From Escherichia phage vB_VIPECOOM01: a stretch of 64,000 nucleotides of DNA. The stretch lies in sequence record OQ721909. One strand, 5' to 3'. Shown piece after piece: positions 21,565-42,742 of the stretch. The notes beneath the pieces are model-generated. The model had not been told where the DNA came from. It saw nothing but the letters and a program-made list of their open reading frames with translations, and did not search any database. Numbering within the stretch: the first letter of the stretch is position 1; each line of letters starts with the position of its first letter. Position numbers and translations under genes: made by a program.

Positions 21565-22086
21565 TTATCCTTTCATTGAAGGTGTAACAGTTGTTAAATA
21601 CTTAATCATAGCCTCAGCTTCTGATTTTGATAATGAAATTTCTCCATTGTTTTGACGAATAGAAATAAAATCCGGATGACGGTCACCACCAGCTTTTAAA
21701 ACACACATATAAGTATCAGTTTCATCTTCAATATTTGAAATGATTGAAGCAGTTCCACATGAATGTGGTTTTTGATAAATCAATGCAGCTTTTCTTCCAC
21801 CGTTTGATTGTTCATAAACTTTTAACACATCAAACAAATCGCTTCTTTTATCAATAGCTAAGATGTTGTTTTCATCTTCAATGTTAAATCCTTCGGATAC
21901 TTCATAAAGTGTCACCCACAAATCACCTATATCGATAGTAGCATTTCCTTTTCCACGACTTTCAAGAATATGACAAATTTTCTTGATTTCGTCATAACTC
22001 ATTTTAATAATATCATCTCCTTGAATAAGGAAGATGTCATTTTTAAATTCAACACGAATTAAACCACTTTCACTTGAAATAAACAT
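21565..22086 (-). CDS. hypothetical protein (tandem paralog A)
   Basis: 173 aa; C-terminal SKSEAEAMIKYLTTVTPSM shared with next ORF. Confidence 0.55.
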   Translation of the reverse strand: MFISSESGLIRVEFKNDIFLIQGDDIIKMSYDEIKKICHILESRGKGNATIDIGDLWVTLYEVSEGFNIEDENNILAIDKRSDLFDVLKVYEQSNGGRKAALIYQKPHSCGTASIISNIEDETDTYMCVLKAGGDRHPDFISIRQNNGEISLSKSEAEAMIKYLTTVTPSMKG

Positions 22087-22092
22087 ATTTCC

Positions 22093-22647
22093 TCACTTTG
22101 AAATCATAGTTGGAATGACAGAATCAAGATAAGTCTTTAGCGCAATAGCTTCGTCTTTGGTAAATGTGACAATATGTGATCGAAAATCGTCAATTTGGCG
22201 AATAGTTAAGACATCTCCCTCTTCATAACATTTTGATACATTTAAAAGAGTTTCATCATTCTGATTGCAAGCGTTAGTAATAATAGCATTGCAATTTTTG
22301 AGCCATTTTAAACTATGTTTTCTTTCATTAGAATAATAAAAATATTTAATCTTAGCTATAAAACTATCCCAATGGATAACTGATAAACACATTGACTCAC
22401 TGTTAATATTAAATCCTGGGCATGAAGAATAAAAATGAATTTTGTGCTCATCATTGATGCTTACTATTTTATCAGTATAAGGATATTCAATTTGGGTTAA
22501 ACGAATGATTTCACTGGGCGTAAAATATAGCATATCGTCTTCTTGCGTCAAACGATACATATTATTTACTTTTTCTATAGCCAATTCACCAAAAAGCGGA
22601 CTAACTTCTAATACTAATCGTTTCATATTAATCCTTTTTATTAGCAT
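22093..22647 (-). CDS. hypothetical protein (tandem paralog B)
   Basis: 184 aa; C-terminal TKDEAIALKTYLDSVIPTM. Confidence 0.55.
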   Translation of the reverse strand: MLIKRINMKRLVLEVSPLFGELAIEKVNNMYRLTQEDDMLYFTPSEIIRLTQIEYPYTDKIVSINDEHKIHFYSSCPGFNINSESMCLSVIHWDSFIAKIKYFYYSNERKHSLKWLKNCNAIITNACNQNDETLLNVSKCYEEGDVLTIRQIDDFRSHIVTFTKDEAIALKTYLDSVIPTMISK

Positions 22648-24994: not shown

Positions 24995-25036
24995 ATATAC
25001 CCCTTTAGTTAGATAAACCTATTTATAACTTTTGCA

Positions 25037-25618
25037 CTAACCGAGCTTTTTAGTTAATTCATTCCAATGTTTTCTACACAAAGAAACATAAATTTCATCA
25101 CCAATACAGATTTGATTACCTTCTTTAACTGGTGTTCCATCTTCCATTAATCGAGCTGTCATAATAGCTTTTTTACCACAATGACAAACTGCTTTTAGTT
25201 CAATAAGTTTATCTGCAATCGCCAAAAGTTCTTTAGAACCTTCAAATAATTTTCCAGCGAAATCAGTCCTTAGTCCATAAGCCATAACAGGAACATTATA
25301 TGTATCAACAATTCGGCTTAATTGATGCACCTGTTCAGTTTTTAAAAACTGAGCTTCATCTACAAATACGCAATGAATATCTTTTTGTGCTTCAGCCCAT
25401 TTATAGAACTCAAAAATATCCATATCATCCGTAATAATATTCGCTTCCTGTTTAATTCCAATGCGAGAAACGACTTCACAGACAGAATCGCGAGTATCAA
25501 TAGCAGGCTTAAGAACTAATACACTCATTCCACGTTCTTTATAATTATGTGCAGCAGTCAAAAGAGAAGCAGATTTTCCAGCATTCATTGCTGCATAAGT
25601 AAAAATTAAACTCGCCAT
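25037..25618 (-). CDS. tk: Thymidine kinase
   Basis: 193 aa; P-loop NAGKSASLL; C-terminal zinc cysteines. Confidence 0.93.
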   Translation of the reverse strand: MASLIFTYAAMNAGKSASLLTAAHNYKERGMSVLVLKPAIDTRDSVCEVVSRIGIKQEANIITDDMDIFEFYKWAEAQKDIHCVFVDEAQFLKTEQVHQLSRIVDTYNVPVMAYGLRTDFAGKLFEGSKELLAIADKLIELKAVCHCGKKAIMTARLMEDGTPVKEGNQICIGDEIYVSLCRKHWNELTKKLG

Positions 25619-25627
25619 ATCACCTTC

Positions 25628-25813
25628 TTAAAGCGTATTCACATAAGCTATTAATTCGTTTTCTTTCTTATCAAACCGGTCAGCAAATTCTTCTTGCTGT
25701 TCGGGAGATAGCGGGCCGTATTCATCATAAAAGGTGTTTGCTTCTGCATGCTCATCTAGAAGTTCATGGATAAGCTCAAACAATTTATCTTTTTGTTCTT
25801 TACTCAGACTCAT
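25628..25813 (-). CDS. hypothetical acidic protein
   Basis: 61 aa ORF. Confidence 0.5.
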   Translation of the reverse strand: MSLSKEQKDKLFELIHELLDEHAEANTFYDEYGPLSPEQQEEFADRFDKKENELIAYVNTL

Positions 25814-25983
25814 ATATTAATTTCCAGGAGTTTTAAAATAATTCGCTTTTGCTTAAATATTTCCGTAGTTAAATGGTCAGTATCTTTTTGACCGATTCCA
25901 ATGGCAAAACCTTTATTAACAGCGAGTTCAATTAAATTATCAAGCTCACGTAACACTTCATATTGTAACTCAAAATTATTCAT
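25811..25983 (-). CDS. hypothetical protein (57 aa)
   Basis: Not in ORF track; stop overlaps next start; fills gap. Confidence 0.3.
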
Positions 25984-26207
25984 TTTGGTTTACCTTCTTT
26001 AACGAAATCAGGATAAGGATAAAATCCCGAATAAAATCCTTCGCCTTTATGATTGATGCATCCTTTATTAGAACAATAGCACCAATAATCGAAATCACAA
26101 GCCATTTCATCATTGCATAAAGCAAAAACAACTGGCCATTTACACTTTTCACAATGTGCATTTTTAAGAATACTAGTTTGGCTCATAACCATGTAACCTT
26201 TAAGCAA
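25980..26207 (-). CDS. hypothetical Cys-rich protein
   Basis: 75 aa with about 10 cysteines. Confidence 0.45.
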   Translation of the reverse strand: MLKGYMVMSQTSILKNAHCEKCKWPVVFALCNDEMACDFDYWCYCSNKGCINHKGEGFYSGFYPYPDFVKEGKPK

Positions 26208-26395
26208 TATTCTTCTACATGTTGTTTACGACCTTTCTTATCAATAAAGGTATATTCAACGAATGTTCCAATATAGTCTTTATCTACATCATGTGGACTA
26301 TTAATTGGGCATTTAGTACGGCAAATGCGTTCCCATTGACGAATAATTTCTGCTTTGTTTTTAGGGTCAAACGGATGCGGGTAATGTGCTTTCAT
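26183..26395 (-). CDS. hypothetical protein
   Basis: 70 aa ORF. Confidence 0.5.
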   Translation of the reverse strand: MKAHYPHPFDPKNKAEIIRQWERICRTKCPINSPHDVDKDYIGTFVEYTFIDKKGRKQHVEEYCLKVTWL

Positions 26396-26846
26396 AATCC
26401 ACCACTATTAAATCAATATCAGGAGTAAACATGTCGATTAATTTAGAAACCTTATCCCAATCACCGCCAGCAATACCACAACCTATGCGTGGAATGTAAA
26501 TTACTGGTTTAAACAAAAGGGTCTCTGCCTGTAGATTTAATTCTATCATGCAGTTTACTAAAGCACCATAATCAAGATTAGGACCTGGTTCGTATTGTGT
26601 ATACAGATTATAGCATATACCAAATCCCGCAGGACTATGTTTAAAAACAATAGACATATCGCCTAATTTATCACGAGAACCATATTCAGTAGTGGTTTTA
26701 TCTATTTCTAAAATTTTAGGATAGGCCCTTGCTAATTGACCTGCTACACCTGAACCCATAGTATGAAAACAATTGCACCCGTGCGCAATAATATTACCTT
26801 GAAGAAATAGGGCGACAATATCGCCCTTGATATATTTTACAATCAT
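26367..26846 (-). CDS. Macro-domain protein (putative ADP-ribose binding / hydrolase)
   Basis: 159 aa; GDIV...HGCNC...GSGVAGQ pattern typical of macro domains. Confidence 0.65.
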   Translation of the reverse strand: MIVKYIKGDIVALFLQGNIIAHGCNCFHTMGSGVAGQLARAYPKILEIDKTTTEYGSRDKLGDMSIVFKHSPAGFGICYNLYTQYEPGPNLDYGALVNCMIELNLQAETLLFKPVIYIPRIGCGIAGGDWDKVSKLIDMFTPDIDLIVVDYESTLPASV

Positions 26847-27184
26847 CTAGTACTCAATCCTCGATTATAAGAATCTACCAAACGGTCAACCATTGAATGA
26901 CAAGCGGCTTTATCTTTCTCCTCCGCAACTGAACATTCTAAGGTATTCCACTTTTTAGCATATCGTTTTAATAAAGTATCATTTTTGTATCTGCTTGATT
27001 TATCTCTTTCTCCGTCTTTATATGCATATATTAATTTCTGCGCAAATTCAGCTTGGCATGCTTTATTTTTCCCGCAATAATCCGCGGCAGTACGGTTTAC
27101 ATACTCTCTAATTTCAGTATATGATGTATTTGCTAACGCAGAAAATGAAATTAATCCTATACATAAAACCAAAATTTTAGTCAT
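26843..27184 (-). CDS. hypothetical secreted protein
   Basis: 113 aa; N-terminal signal peptide MTKILVLCIGLISFSALA. Confidence 0.55.
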   Translation of the reverse strand: MTKILVLCIGLISFSALANTSYTEIREYVNRTAADYCGKNKACQAEFAQKLIYAYKDGERDKSSRYKNDTLLKRYAKKWNTLECSVAEEKDKAACHSMVDRLVDSYNRGLSTR

Positions 27185-27722
27185 TTACTATTTCCAAAAG
27201 TTTATTATTTTTAAGGTAGTTAGCCTTTTCTAGGACTTCAGAAGCATATTTAGAACCTGCTTTAACATTCCATCCCGAATTATAAGAGGATATCGCCTTT
27301 CTTATATCGCCCTTATGTATATTTAACCAATAAGAAAGTTCAATGTACGCCCATGAAGCTGAATTGGACCGTTTATTCAACATTCTTTTTATTTCAGCAT
27401 CAGTCATATTATAACCAAGTTCCTTAACTCTTGCTCGCATAGTAGGCAAATAATTTTGGAACATTCCGTAGGCATGATGCTTTGGTTTAGATTTTAAATT
27501 AACTCCGGCAGAGCTTTCTTGCCATAAAATAGCAGCCATTATATGACCTAATCCGCTCTTGTGGATATTTTTATGTGTTTTATATTTTCCATCCTTAGAA
27601 AATTGTTCCCCGAATTGATACGCGTAACGCATGTTATCGAGTTGGACATTACTGAAAGTATGCTCGGAGCTATGTGCCATCATAGAAATGGCCAATAGAC
27701 CAGCGAGTAGTGCTTTTCTCAT
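27177..27722 (-). CDS. Periplasmic lytic-transglycosylase-like (SLT domain) protein
   Basis: 181 aa; signal peptide; WQESS, GMFQ and SYNSGW motifs resembling SLT E-S / GLMQ / AYNAG. Confidence 0.7.
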   Translation of the reverse strand: MRKALLAGLLAISMMAHSSEHTFSNVQLDNMRYAYQFGEQFSKDGKYKTHKNIHKSGLGHIMAAILWQESSAGVNLKSKPKHHAYGMFQNYLPTMRARVKELGYNMTDAEIKRMLNKRSNSASWAYIELSYWLNIHKGDIRKAISSYNSGWNVKAGSKYASEVLEKANYLKNNKLLEIVND

Positions 27723-27729
27723 GCTTACC

Positions 27730-28191
27730 TCATTGAGTTTTAATTACTGCTTTAGAAGCCTTTCCCGGTAAACGACGACTGTTGATAATTGCCATCCTGC
27801 ACTGAAGTGACGGGTCTTTGAACTTCGCATTAGGTTTACAAACTGTAAATCCAAGCCAAAGATTTCCATCAGTGATTTCTAAACGCCCAGGACGATATTC
27901 AACCCCATCAATAAAATCCTCGTCAATGTCAGGACGCGGAGGCATATTCAGGAATTCATTAACTTCTAAAACATGGTCTTTTATTTTATGGAATAATTCA
28001 AAAACATATGTCTCATCAATCTCCCGTTGAATTGCACGATCAAGAAGATGCTGAGAATATTTTAGATGAAACGATGAGACTCCTGCTGCTTTTGATGCCT
28101 CACGAATCTCATTGTTAATTTGACGAAACTCCGACTCAAAGTGACGACGGAGTTTATTTCGACGGATAAAAACTTCTGTGTTGATAGTCAT
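27730..28191 (-). CDS. regB: Endoribonuclease RegB
   Basis: 153 aa; near-identical to recalled T4 RegB. Confidence 0.93.
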   Translation of the reverse strand: MTINTEVFIRRNKLRRHFESEFRQINNEIREASKAAGVSSFHLKYSQHLLDRAIQREIDETYVFELFHKIKDHVLEVNEFLNMPPRPDIDEDFIDGVEYRPGRLEITDGNLWLGFTVCKPNAKFKDPSLQCRMAIINSRRLPGKASKAVIKTQ

Positions 28192-28217
28192 GTTATTCTC
28201 CTCTTAACTGATAGAAA

Positions 28218-28248
28218 AATTATACCACAGTCAAGAGGAAAAGTAAAC
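28218..28248 (-). promoter_or_regulatory. early promoter upstream of regB
   Basis: GTTTAC -35, TGGTATAAT -10 on minus strand. Confidence 0.6.
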
Positions 28249-28251
28249 AAG

Positions 28252-28572
28252 TTATTCTTTAAATCTAATCAATTTATTCATAGACTTTGTAACTTCTGCA
28301 CGAACCTCATGCAGGTTTTTAAGCTGTTCAAGACGCTGCTCATAGTAAGCAATTTCATCTTCTTCGAGACAGTCCTGTGAATCTTCTTTAAGATAACGCG
28401 CATAGTCCTGGAAAGCTTTACGGACTACTTCCTGGAAGTCATCAAGACTTTGAATTTTCTTAGGAGCAACAGATACACGACGAGGGGCAGTATAATACTC
28501 ATAACCAAACCCTGCGCTTAATTGAGCCATTAATATTTTTCCTCTGGTTGGAATACCGCGCGACAAGCCCAC
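28252..28572 (-). CDS. hypothetical protein
   Basis: 106 aa ORF; start may be internal Met at 28530. Confidence 0.5.
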
Positions 28573-28796
28573 ATACTAGCTTCTTTGAGTTTCGTTTTAG
28601 CAATAGTTAGCTGATCGAGGCTTTCAGCATAATTCTTTGCGAATTCGTAGTCTTCGCAATTATCTAGTGCTTCCCAGAATTCATCGTATAAAGCGTCAAA
28701 GATAAGTCCTAAACGAACTTCAGCATCTTTGATAGCATTCACTTTACCGATTTTCTCTTCAGTATGTGGCTTATAACCCTTAATATCTTCAATCAT
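28530..28796 (-). CDS. hypothetical protein
   Basis: 88 aa ORF. Confidence 0.5.
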
Positions 28797-32474: not shown

Positions 32475-32930
32475 TTAAAAGAGGCTGTTCATTATTCGGT
32501 AAAGTGAAGGACCCATCACATATTGCCACTGAGTGCGAGGAATAAGAGCAAAAGCATCCATCTCTGGAATCATAACACCATCTTTATTTTCAAAATAAGA
32601 CTCGCAATGGCAATTTCTAAACATCTCATGCTCTACTGGAATCGTATAATAAAACAGCTGTAAGTCTTTATTACTAGAATATTTAAATACACCTAGGTCT
32701 TCTAGAAGGTCTGGATTATAATTGCTAAAACCGGTCTCTTCTAAGCATTCTCTTCGTGCTGCATCTAGTGCGTTTAAATCAGAATTTTCTACACGGCCTT
32801 TTGGAATATCCCAGCGATGTGCCATCATTCCAGGCTTACGAGAACCAGTAACCCGTCCCATGAATAAATCTTTATCTTCTGTCATAAAGATAATACCAGC
32901 TGATAATGTTTTCATTTTAATTTCCTGCAT
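32475..32930 (-). CDS. nudE: Nudix hydrolase
   Basis: 151 aa; Nudix box GRVENSDLNALDAARRECLEETGF. Confidence 0.85.
   Translation of the reverse strand: MQEIKMKTLSAGIIFMTEDKDLFMGRVTGSRKPGMMAHRWDIPKGRVENSDLNALDAARRECLEETGFSNYNPDLLEDLGVFKYSSNKDLQLFYYTIPVEHEMFRNCHCESYFENKDGVMIPEMDAFALIPRTQWQYVMGPSLYRIMNSLF

Positions 32931-42011: not shown

Positions 42012-42742
<731 letters not shown>

What the first reader, a model, noticed from the sequence alone, without database searches (positions are those of the whole stretch)
26367..26846. Macro-domain protein in the tk-regB accessory block
The 159 aa ORF has the N-terminal pattern GDIV...HGCNC...GSGVAGQ typical of macro domains, which bind or hydrolyse ADP-ribose, O-acetyl-ADP-ribose or ADP-ribosylated targets. 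In a phage this could reverse host ADP-ribosylation-based defence or degrade NAD-derived signals. It sits beside a secreted protein gene and a periplasmic lytic transglycosylase gene.
Basis: partly seen in the sequence, partly recalled or inferred. Interest (0 to 1): 0.5.

Follow-up and report, generated by a model that had tools for sequence, protein, structure and literature searches.

The report
T4 tk.4-type anti-DarT macrodomain gene

Summary

Two details go beyond that. First, this allele is only 57% identical to T4/T2/T6 Tk.4, while every neighbouring gene with a full-length T4 match is 94-100% identical, so it is a recombinant patch. All 14 family-invariant residues are kept. Second, the family lacks the catalytic Lys of DarG and TARG1. 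It carries an invariant Gln, with His, Asn and Gly partners, exactly as in Streptomyces SCO6735, a proven thymidine-ADP-ribose DNA hydrolase.

The most likely function is removal of DarT2-made ADP-ribose from phage DNA. This is shown genetically for T4 only, and I found no biochemistry for any Tk.4. Verdict: already known, low interest.

The parts
26367..26846 (-). tk.4 / adfM orthologue: a 159-aa stand-alone macrodomain of the TARG1/DarG/SCO6735 class
26742..26783 (-). Catalytic/phosphate-binding loop 1, H22-GCNCFHTMGSGV-A35
   Evidence: H22, G23, N25, C26, G33 and A35 are invariant in 63 homologues. In the profile alignment H22 matches SCO6735 His24, G23 matches Val25 and N25 matches Asn27. 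SCO6735 N27S is nearly inactive. Coordinates were checked by translation.
26595..26609 (-). N80-L-Y-T-Q84 strand; Q84 occupies the position of the catalytic Lys of TARG1 (K84) and DarG (K80)
   Evidence: N80, Y82 and Q84 are invariant. Q84 aligns to TARG1 K84, to the K of DarG 'FPTK' and to SCO6735 Gln85. SCO6735 Q85A/E is inactive.
26457..26492 (-). Phosphate-binding loop 2, P119-RIGCGIAGGD-W130
   Evidence: P119, G122, G124 and W130 are invariant. G122 and G124 align to SCO6735 Gly126 and Gly128, and SCO6735 G128E has reduced activity. A126 sits where TARG1 has the catalytic Asp125.
26390..26740 (-). Divergent allelic patch inside tk.4 relative to T4
   Evidence: Nucleotide identity to T4 in 60-nt windows falls to 35-73% across this patch (65-87% at its right-hand edge, near 26740). 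The flanks are 97-100% identical in most 60-nt bins, with a few at 82-93%. Protein identity is 57%, against 94-100% for the neighbouring genes with a full-length T4 match.
26843..27184 (-). vs (valyl-tRNA synthetase modifier), immediately upstream; its stop codon overlaps the tk.4 start (ATGA)
   Evidence: PHROG 1256 scores 6.5e-40. It is 96.5% identical to T4 Vs. The ATGA overlap was read directly.
27177..27722 (-). vs.1, an SLT-domain protein in the same leftward gene string
   Evidence: Pfam SLT scores 23.4 bits, above the gathering score of 21.3. It is 99.4% identical to T4 Vs.1.
27730..28191 (-). regB endoribonuclease, first gene of the string
   Evidence: Pfam REGB_T4 scores 1.3e-68. It is 98.7% identical to T4 RegB.
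28219..28247 (-). Sigma-70-like promoter upstream of regB (TTTACT-17-TATAAT with an extended TG), a candidate early promoter for regB-vs.1-vs-tk.4
   Evidence: Found by the consensus scan. The evidence is weak, because the total number of promoter-like sites in the region is not above the shuffled expectation.
26183..26395 (-). tk.3 (DUF7202), downstream; its start lies 29 nt inside the 3' end of tk.4
   Evidence: Pfam DUF7202 scores 1.9e-38. It is 94% identical to T4 Tk.3. The overlap was computed.

Best explanation
The ORF is this phage's copy of T4 gene tk.4 (adfM). It is a stand-alone macrodomain, probably co-transcribed with regB, vs.1 and vs, and translationally coupled to vs. Its most likely job is counter-defence against the host DarTG2 toxin-antitoxin system. 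DarT2 ADP-ribosylates thymidines in single-stranded phage DNA and blocks replication. Tk.4 binds the ADP-ribose moiety in its Gly-rich pocket and hydrolyses the ribose-thymine bond, releasing ADP-ribose and restoring the base. The active site is not the Lys type of DarG and TARG1. It is the Gln type of Streptomyces SCO6735. By analogy with the mechanism proposed for SCO6735, Gln84, held by Asn25, would position the distal ribose, and a water held by backbone atoms near His22/Gly23 would start the reaction.

Three things are shown here: the fold, the class and the active-site residue pattern. Shown elsewhere for T4 only: loss of tk.4 sensitises the phage to DarTG2. Three things are inferred: that this 57%-identical allele does the same job, that it acts catalytically on thymidine-ADP-ribose, and that it is expressed early.
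For: Identity and synteny. The window is 100% identical to Escherichia phage vB_VIPECOOM03 over the 3.3 kb compared. The ORF lies between vs and tk.3 exactly as T4 tk.4 does and is 57% identical to T4 Tk.4 over its full length, E=5e-70.

Genetics in T4. tk.4 was the single significant hit in a transposon screen on DarTG2, and a clean knockout is sensitised. The authors named it AdfM. T2, T4, T6 and RB69 were all reported DarTG2-resistant with no known factor, and all four carry tk.4.

Active site. H22, N25, Q84, G122 and G124 are invariant in 63 homologues and identical in the T4 allele. They align to SCO6735 H24, N27, Q85, G126 and G128. SCO6735 cleaves thymidine-linked ADP-ribose on DNA, protects against DarT, and is killed by Q85A and nearly killed by N27S. 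The family profile scores BT1257 (69.5 bits) and SCO6735 (58.1 bits) above the DarG macrodomains (48 and 43 bits).

Precedent. Another phage macrodomain, PhiKZ gp104, was shown in vitro to remove DarT2-made ADP-ribose from DNA.
Against: I found no biochemistry for any Tk.4 protein in the paper library, so hydrolysis is inferred even for T4. The tested T4 allele and this one differ at 43% of positions, and no phage with the window-type allele was found to have been tested: T2, T4, T6 and RB69 all carry the T4 type. The two lysines that position DNA in SCO6735 (K34, K89) are not conserved here; they align to S32 and G88. The protein is acidic overall, with pI 5.0, which does not obviously fit a DNA-binding groove. 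SCO6735 also inhibits DarT without catalysis, so a binding mechanism could contribute. Early co-transcription rests only on gene overlaps and a consensus promoter match that is not above chance.
Confidence: 0.7

Rival explanations
1. It is an ADP-ribose-1''-phosphate phosphatase or another small-molecule ADP-ribose-derivative hydrolase (Poa1p-like). This is what the database label 'phosphatase / A1pp' implies: clearing NAD-derived by-products of RNA repair or toxic metabolites.
Against: The sequence similarity to Poa1p is essentially confined to the N-terminal 80 residues. In the T4 screen tk.4 was the single significant hit on DarTG2. No Tpt1/KptA-type source of Appr-1''-p lies in the part of the window where I read the ORF list or the GenBank annotation (about 22-44 kb). 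The label comes from domain naming, not from an assay.
Confidence: 0.08
2. It neutralises DarT2 mainly without catalysis, either by binding DarT2 ('interaction-inhibition') or by capping ADP-ribosylated sites. The macrodomain pocket would serve for recognition rather than hydrolysis.
For: Catalytically dead SCO6735 Q85A, DarG K80A and TARG1 K84A all inhibit DarT in vitro, SCO6735 most strongly. The strong allelic divergence on an otherwise conserved backbone is what one would expect of a surface that co-evolves with a partner protein. The catalytic Lys is absent.
Against: All residues needed for SCO6735 catalysis are invariant across 63 homologues down to 38% identity, which argues for selection on chemistry. 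The protein lacks the C-terminal DarT-binding domain of DarG: it is 159 aa and matches only positions 2-142 of the 338-position DarG model.
Confidence: 0.1
3. It removes ADP-ribose from proteins (Glu/Asp-linked, as TARG1 does). For example, it might reverse a host protein-ADP-ribosylating defence or tune the phage's own Alt/ModA/ModB modifications.
For: TARG1 is the top Foldseek hit. SCO6735 also de-modifies auto-ADP-ribosylated PARP1 E988Q. T4-like phages encode ADP-ribosyltransferases.
Against: The TARG1 catalytic dyad is missing: Lys84 is replaced by Gln and Asp125 by Ala. Alt and Mod enzymes modify arginine, which macrodomains of this class are not known to reverse (my own knowledge, not tested here). 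I found no genetic evidence.
Confidence: 0.05
4. It degrades NAD-derived immune signals such as the Thoeris cyclic ADP-ribose isomers.
Against: The closest structural and sequence relatives are all base- or protein-linked ADP-ribose hydrolases, not signal-binding macro domains. I found no report of such an activity.
Confidence: 0.03

Closest known systems
T4 Tk.4 = AdfM (anti-DarT factor Macrodomain), bioRxiv 10.1101/2025.11.20.689424
   Same: It occupies the same locus between vs and tk.3 and the same leftward tk-regB gene string. It has the same length class, 155 vs 159 aa. It belongs to the same PHROG. All 14 family-invariant residues are identical.
   Different: It is only 57% identical in protein, and the gene body is a divergent patch in a 97-100% identical backbone. 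It has four extra C-terminal residues and a 29-nt overlap with tk.3, where T4 has a 4-nt overlap. The anti-DarTG2 phenotype was shown only for the T4 allele.
Streptomyces coelicolor SCO6735 (PDB 5e3b) and its Bacteroides relative BT1257 (2afc/2fg1)
   Different: Identity is about 25-29%. The DNA-positioning Lys34 and Lys89 of SCO6735 are not conserved. SCO6735 has a longer loop after the Gln. It is a cellular DNA-damage-inducible gene, not a phage counter-defence gene.
DarG antitoxin macrodomain (T. aquaticus 5m31, M. tuberculosis 5m3i)
   Different: DarG uses Lys80 where this protein has Gln84. DarG has a C-terminal DarT-binding domain and is encoded next to darT, and neither is present here. 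The score of 27.6 bits is far below the 250-bit equivalog cut-off.
PhiKZ gp104 'AdfM' of chimalliviruses (Cell Rep 2026, PMC13309987)
   Same: It is a phage-encoded stand-alone macrodomain that counters DarTG2. Removal of DarT2-made ADP-ribose from DNA was shown in vitro, and its conserved Asn (N23) is equivalent to N25 here.
   Different: It belongs to a different sub-type. PhiKZ gp104 is DarG-like with the FPTK lysine (E 9.4e-25 to MtbDarG) and scores only 34 bits against the Tk.4 family profile. It is imported into the phage nucleus, which T4-like phages lack. The same name was given independently to two non-orthologous proteins.
Human TARG1 (C6orf130/OARD1)
   Same: It is the top Foldseek hit (E 7.7e-10, TM about 0.73-0.84). 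It shares the same class. TARG1 also reverses thymine- and uracil-linked ADP-ribosylation.
   Different: Its Lys84/Asp125 catalytic dyad is replaced here by Gln84/Ala126. Identity is about 20%.
T4 AdfN (gp30.3, NADAR) and AdfA (gp61.2)
   Same: They are orphan antitoxin-like counter-defence genes of T-even phages against DarTG systems.
   Different: They have an unrelated fold. They act on DarT1, which modifies guanosine, and not on DarT2, which modifies thymidine. I did not locate them in this window.

Membership tests
Macro domain superfamily (Pfam PF01661) | Profile match above the curated gathering score | tested here: met
   The score is 32.2 bits against a cut-off of 22, E=1.1e-7, covering profile positions 2-117 of 118.
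Macro domain superfamily (Pfam PF01661) | Three-layer alpha/beta/alpha macro fold | tested here: met
Macro domain superfamily (Pfam PF01661) | Two Gly-rich phosphate-binding loops | tested here: met
   MGSGVA (residues 30-35) and GCGIAGG (122-128) are present, and G33, A35, G122 and G124 are invariant.
Macro domain superfamily (Pfam PF01661) | Binds ADP-ribose | not testable with these tools
   This needs ITC, a co-crystal structure or an equivalent binding assay.
ALC1-like / TARG1-like macrodomain class (TARG1, DarG, SCO6735, Poa1p) | Closest structural and sequence neighbours are members of this class rather than MacroD, PARG or viral Mac1 types | tested here: met
TARG1/DarG Lys-type hydrolases | Catalytic Lys (TARG1 K84, DarG K80) | tested here: not met
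   An invariant Gln84 occupies that column.
TARG1/DarG Lys-type hydrolases | TARG1 Asp125 partner of the dyad | tested here: not met
   Ala126 aligns to Asp125.
SCO6735-type (Gln-type) thymidine-ADP-ribose DNA hydrolases | Gln at the Lys position, held by a conserved Asn (SCO6735 Q85 and N27) | tested here: met
   Q84 aligns to Q85 and N25 to N27. Both are invariant in 63 homologues. Their functional importance in SCO6735 is documented.
SCO6735-type (Gln-type) thymidine-ADP-ribose DNA hydrolases | His24 and Gly126/Gly128 equivalents | tested here: met
   H22, G122 and G124 are invariant and aligned.
SCO6735-type (Gln-type) thymidine-ADP-ribose DNA hydrolases | DNA-positioning Lys34 and Lys89 | tested here: not met
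   They align to S32 and G88.
SCO6735-type (Gln-type) thymidine-ADP-ribose DNA hydrolases | Hydrolyses ADP-ribose from thymidine in ssDNA | not testable with these tools
   This needs an in vitro assay on DarT2-modified oligonucleotides.
DarG antitoxin (NCBIfam NF048014 equivalog) | Full-length match above the 250-bit cut-off, including the C-terminal DarT-binding domain | tested here: not met
   The score is 27.6 bits, and only model positions 2-142 of 338 are matched.
DarG antitoxin (NCBIfam NF048014 equivalog) | Encoded next to a darT toxin gene | tested here: not met
   The neighbours are vs and tk.3. No ART-like gene lies beside it.
T4 Tk.4 / AdfM orthologous group | Syntenic position between vs and tk.3 in a Tevenvirinae genome | tested here: met
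   Searches show this.
T4 Tk.4 / AdfM orthologous group | Full-length homology and shared conserved residues | tested here: met
   It is 57% identical over 155 aa, E=5e-70. 14 of 14 invariant and 12 of 14 near-invariant residues are identical. It falls in the same PHROG 335.
T4 Tk.4 / AdfM orthologous group | Protects the phage from DarTG2 | not testable with these tools
   This was shown for T4 only. The window-type allele is untested as far as the library shows.
Poa1p-type ADP-ribose-1''-phosphate phosphatase | Homology across the whole domain and Appr-1''-p phosphatase activity | tested here: inconclusive

The most novel reading that the evidence does not exclude
The two deeply divergent tk.4 allele classes circulate on near-identical Tequatrovirus backbones. 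The window type is found at 90% identity or more in 311 phage records, and the T4 type in 224. They may not be functionally equivalent. They could be specificity variants shaped by an arms race, tuned to different DarT2 homologues through a direct DarT2-binding surface, or to a different base-linked ADP-ribose substrate such as uracil-ADP-ribose on RNA, which SCO6735-type enzymes also cleave. The conserved Gln-type chemistry would stay the same.
Probability: 0.15. Interest if true: 0.5.

Novelty: already known. Interest (0 to 1): 0.2.

Why it matters
DarTG systems are widespread bacterial defences, and T-even phages devote several genes to them: AdfA, AdfN and now Tk.4/AdfM. Recognising this ORF as the tk.4/adfM orthologue explains why such phages would resist DarTG2, which matters for phage-therapy host-range prediction.

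Two points remain open and are cheaply testable. First, Tk.4-type proteins have the SCO6735-like Gln active site rather than the DarG Lys site to which the preprint compared them. Second, there is a sharply divergent, untested allele class. Neither point changes the overall picture.

Tried and rejected
- **Single-sequence AlphaFold run.** It gave pLDDT 34 and was useless, and it cost one of the two structure jobs. The run with the alignment worked.
- **MAFFT alignment of the family with PDB macrodomains.** It mis-registered BT1257 around the NLYTQ strand. I relied instead on HMM-to-sequence alignments, which agree with each other.
- **PDB search with the C-terminal 100 residues, to force an SCO6735 alignment.** It aligned only phosphate-binding loop 2. 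I recovered the SCO6735 sequence by searching with BT1257.
- **Promoter and terminator scan.** Promoter-like sites are not above the shuffled expectation, so only the site upstream of regB is mentioned, and as weak evidence. A 'terminator-like' hairpin at 26809-26827 lies inside the coding region and is identical in T4. It coincides with the conserved KGDIVAL codons, and I do not interpret it.
- **Mapping allele differences onto the model.** Model coordinates are not exposed to scripts, so I could not do this.
- **Biochemistry of Tk.4.** I searched the paper library and found none.
- **Rejected readings.** It is not a DarG antitoxin: there is no DarT-binding domain and no darT neighbour. It is not a MacroD/YmdB-type O-acetyl-ADP-ribose deacetylase, the 'RNase III regulator' label used in some metagenome annotations, because it falls in a different structural class with a lower Z.

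Full report
**Observation**

An ATG-initiated ORF of 159 codons occupies 26367-26846 on the minus strand. Its start codon overlaps the stop of the upstream gene (ATGA), and its last 29 nt overlap the start of the downstream gene.

Several independent searches identify it as a macrodomain.
- Pfam Macro (PF01661) matches at E=1.1e-7, 32.2 bits against a gathering score of 22, over nearly the whole profile.
- PHROG 335 matches at 1.3e-71.
- A direct sequence search of the PDB finds BT1257, yeast Poa1p, SCO6735, the M. tuberculosis DarG macrodomain and TARG1.

**Where the window comes from**

A 3.3-kb stretch around the ORF (window 25000-28300) is 100% identical to Escherichia phage vB_VIPECOOM03 (OQ721911, genus Tequatrovirus) and about 98% identical to hundreds of other T4-like phages. 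In that record the ORF is CDS VIPECOOM03_00109, labelled 'phosphatase'. The gene order is regB, vs.1, vs, this ORF, tk.3 ... tk, all leftward. This is the order in T4, where the gene in that slot is tk.4, annotated 'phosphatase; contains A1pp phosphatase motif'. A 2006 comparative paper already reported the A1pp (macro) match for tk.4 orthologues (PMC1524935). The macrodomain assignment is therefore old knowledge.

**Known function of the orthologue**

A 2025 preprint used transposon-insertion sequencing of T4 (HIDEN-SEQ, bioRxiv 10.1101/2025.11.20.689424). It found tk.4 to be the single significant gene required on a host expressing DarTG2. A clean knockout was sensitised, and the authors renamed the gene adfM (anti-DarT factor Macrodomain). 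They proposed, but did not show, that it removes ADP-ribose from DNA.

This filled a gap left by the AdfN study. That work noted that T2, T4, T6 and RB69 all resist DarTG2 by an unknown factor (PMC11257639). Independently, a chimallivirus macrodomain, PhiKZ gp104, was given the same name and was shown in vitro to remove DarT2-made ADP-ribose from DNA (PMC13309987). I found no biochemical work on any Tk.4 protein.

**Fold and class**

There is then a clear step down to 13.7 for coronavirus, alphavirus, PARP and MacroD macrodomains. The protein therefore belongs to the ALC1-like (TARG1/DarG) class. The only NCBIfam model it touches is the DarG antitoxin. The score is 27.6 bits against a cut-off of 250, and only the macro half of the model is matched. 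It is an orphan macrodomain, not a DarG.

**Active site**

Across 63 homologues down to 38% identity, the invariant residues are H22, G23, N25, C26, G33, A35, D49, N80, Y82, Q84, P119, G122, G124 and W130. There is no invariant lysine.

Aligning the family profile to TARG1 puts Q84 on the catalytic Lys84 and A126 on Asp125. Aligning it to the DarG macrodomains puts Q84 on the Lys of 'FPTK', which is Lys80. This is the situation described for Streptomyces coelicolor SCO6735. That enzyme lacks both TARG1 residues and has Gln85 at the Lys position. Q85A/E kills it, N27S nearly kills it and G128E weakens it. It nevertheless cleaves thymidine-linked ADP-ribose from DNA efficiently and protects cells from DarT (PMC9411070).

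I recovered the SCO6735 sequence through its close relative BT1257 (E=1e-53). Its numbering reproduces the paper's residues. In the profile alignment the following pairs match:
- H22 = His24
- G23 = Val25
- N25 = Asn27
- N80 = Asn81
- Q84 = Gln85
- G122 = Gly126
- G124 = Gly128

The family profile also scores BT1257 (69.5 bits) and SCO6735 (58.1) above the DarG macrodomains (48.2 and 43.2) and PhiKZ gp104 (34.2). PhiKZ gp104 is a Lys-type, DarG-like protein (E=9.4e-25 to MtbDarG). So Tk.4-type proteins are best described as SCO6735-like, Gln-type members of the class. The two phage proteins called 'AdfM' are different sub-types.

Two points count against a simple transfer of the SCO6735 mechanism. 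Its DNA-positioning lysines K34 and K89 align here to S32 and G88. The protein is also acidic overall, with pI 5.0.

**A divergent allele**

The protein is only 57% identical to T4 Tk.4. Every neighbouring gene that matches its T4 counterpart over its full length is 94-100% identical: rI.-1, rI, rI.1, tk, tk.3, vs, vs.1, regB, vs.3, vs.4 and vs.6. The exceptions are the small ORFs between tk and tk.3, where the gene content itself differs from T4, and vs.5, which matches over only 17 residues.

At the nucleotide level, identity to T4 is 97-100% in most flanking 60-nt bins and falls to 35-73% between about 26390 and 26740. This is a recombinant patch whose right edge lies in the conserved N-terminal motif region. 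T2, T4 and T6 share one allele (99-100% identical to each other). RB69, from a different genus, is 83% identical to that allele. The window protein is 56-57% identical to all four.

Among 50,697 phage records, 311 carry the window type at 90% identity or more. 224 carry the T4 type at 90% or more, and a further 159 at 80-90%. About 2,750 records have some homologue. All 14 invariant and 12 of 14 near-invariant residues are identical between the two alleles, so the chemistry is probably the same. But the allele seen here has, as far as I could find, never been tested.

**Mechanism and confidence**

The best-supported reading is this. The gene is expressed with regB, vs.1 and vs; the evidence is the overlapping reading frames and a consensus promoter upstream of regB, which is weak. 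Its product removes DarT2-made ADP-ribose from thymidines in phage ssDNA, using the Gln-type site.

The fold, the class, the residue pattern and the orthology are shown here. The DarTG2 phenotype is shown elsewhere, and for T4 only. Catalysis on thymidine-ADP-ribose, equivalence of this allele and the timing of expression are inferred. I put 0.7 on this.

The rivals are as follows.
- Stoichiometric DarT2 inhibition (0.1), which could also act alongside catalysis. Dead SCO6735, DarG and TARG1 all inhibit DarT.
- Appr-1''-p phosphatase or small-molecule processing, as the database label implies (0.08).
- Protein de-ADP-ribosylation (0.05).
- Degradation of Thoeris-type signals (0.03).

**Verdict**

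However, this is the T4 tk.4/adfM orthologue, annotated as a macro protein for some two decades and functionally assigned in 2025, so it is already known. Two things were not stated in the sources I read: the Gln-type (SCO6735-like) active site, and the presence of a sharply divergent, untested allele class on an otherwise T4-identical backbone. Both are modest and testable points.

Noticed in passing
window 26390-26740 (inside tk.4): tk.4 is a sharp outlier in divergence from T4. It is 57% identical in protein, against 94-100% for the 11 neighbouring genes with a full-length T4 match, and nucleotide identity drops to 35-73% within an otherwise 97-100% identical region. Two allele classes circulate among T4-like phages: 311 records carry the window type and 224 the T4 type, each at 90% identity or more.
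   Followed up: yes
window 25619-26181: The small-ORF content between tk and tk.3 differs from T4. T4 tk.1 has no counterpart, the tk.2-like ORF (25628-25813) is only 54% identical, and there are two extra ORFs: a 57-aa ORF at 25810-25983 and a Pfam 'Phage_zn_bind' ORF at 25980-26207. In T6 the same interval additionally holds two extra small ORFs annotated RB32ORF110c and RB32ORF111c; I did not compare them with the window ORFs. This is a plastic region next to the divergent tk.4.
   Followed up: partly
L003 (phage T6) 5138-5605: T6 Tk.4 reads HTMKAGVAGQ where T4, T2 and this phage read HTMGSGVAGQ. It changes the near-invariant Gly31 of the first phosphate-binding loop to Lys. Whether T6 Tk.4 is still active is unknown.
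   Followed up: no
window 26843-27184 (vs) and 27177-27722 (vs.1): Vs, annotated as a modifier of the cytoplasmic valyl-tRNA synthetase, begins with a signal-peptide-like sequence (MTKILVLCIGLISFSALA), as does the SLT-domain protein Vs.1. The HIDEN-SEQ preprint reports vs as the gene most depleted in minimal medium. A secreted form seems at odds with the textbook function.
   Followed up: no
window 28530-28796: The vs.4 orthologue is 99% identical to T4 Vs.4. Vs.4 is discussed in the literature together with the anti-CBASS cyclic-nucleotide sponge Acb2. If so, a second counter-defence gene sits 1.7 kb from tk.4.
   Followed up: partly
window 32475-32915 and 42058-42513: From the GenBank annotation at an offset of 32000, a Nudix hydrolase lies at 32475-32915. 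In T6 and RB69 the annotated nudE sits in the same place, just after the lysozyme gene e, and is noted as active on ADP-ribose. The gene next to the tail-fibre chaperone and dNMP kinase lies at 42058-42513, which is the position of T4 57B/Acb1. NudE could dispose of ADP-ribose released by Tk.4; this is speculation.
   Followed up: no
window 26809-26827: A near-perfect hairpin (AGGGCGATATTGTCGCCCT) lies 20 nt into the tk.4 coding sequence and was flagged as terminator-like on both strands. It is identical in T4. It may just reflect the conserved KGDIVAL codons.
   Followed up: partly
window 21565-22647: Two adjacent paralogous ORFs (173 and 184 aa, both PHROG 1502, mobD.1-like) stand where T4 has the mobD homing endonuclease plus mobD.1. 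T6 annotation notes a similar 'replaces mobD' arrangement.
   Followed up: no
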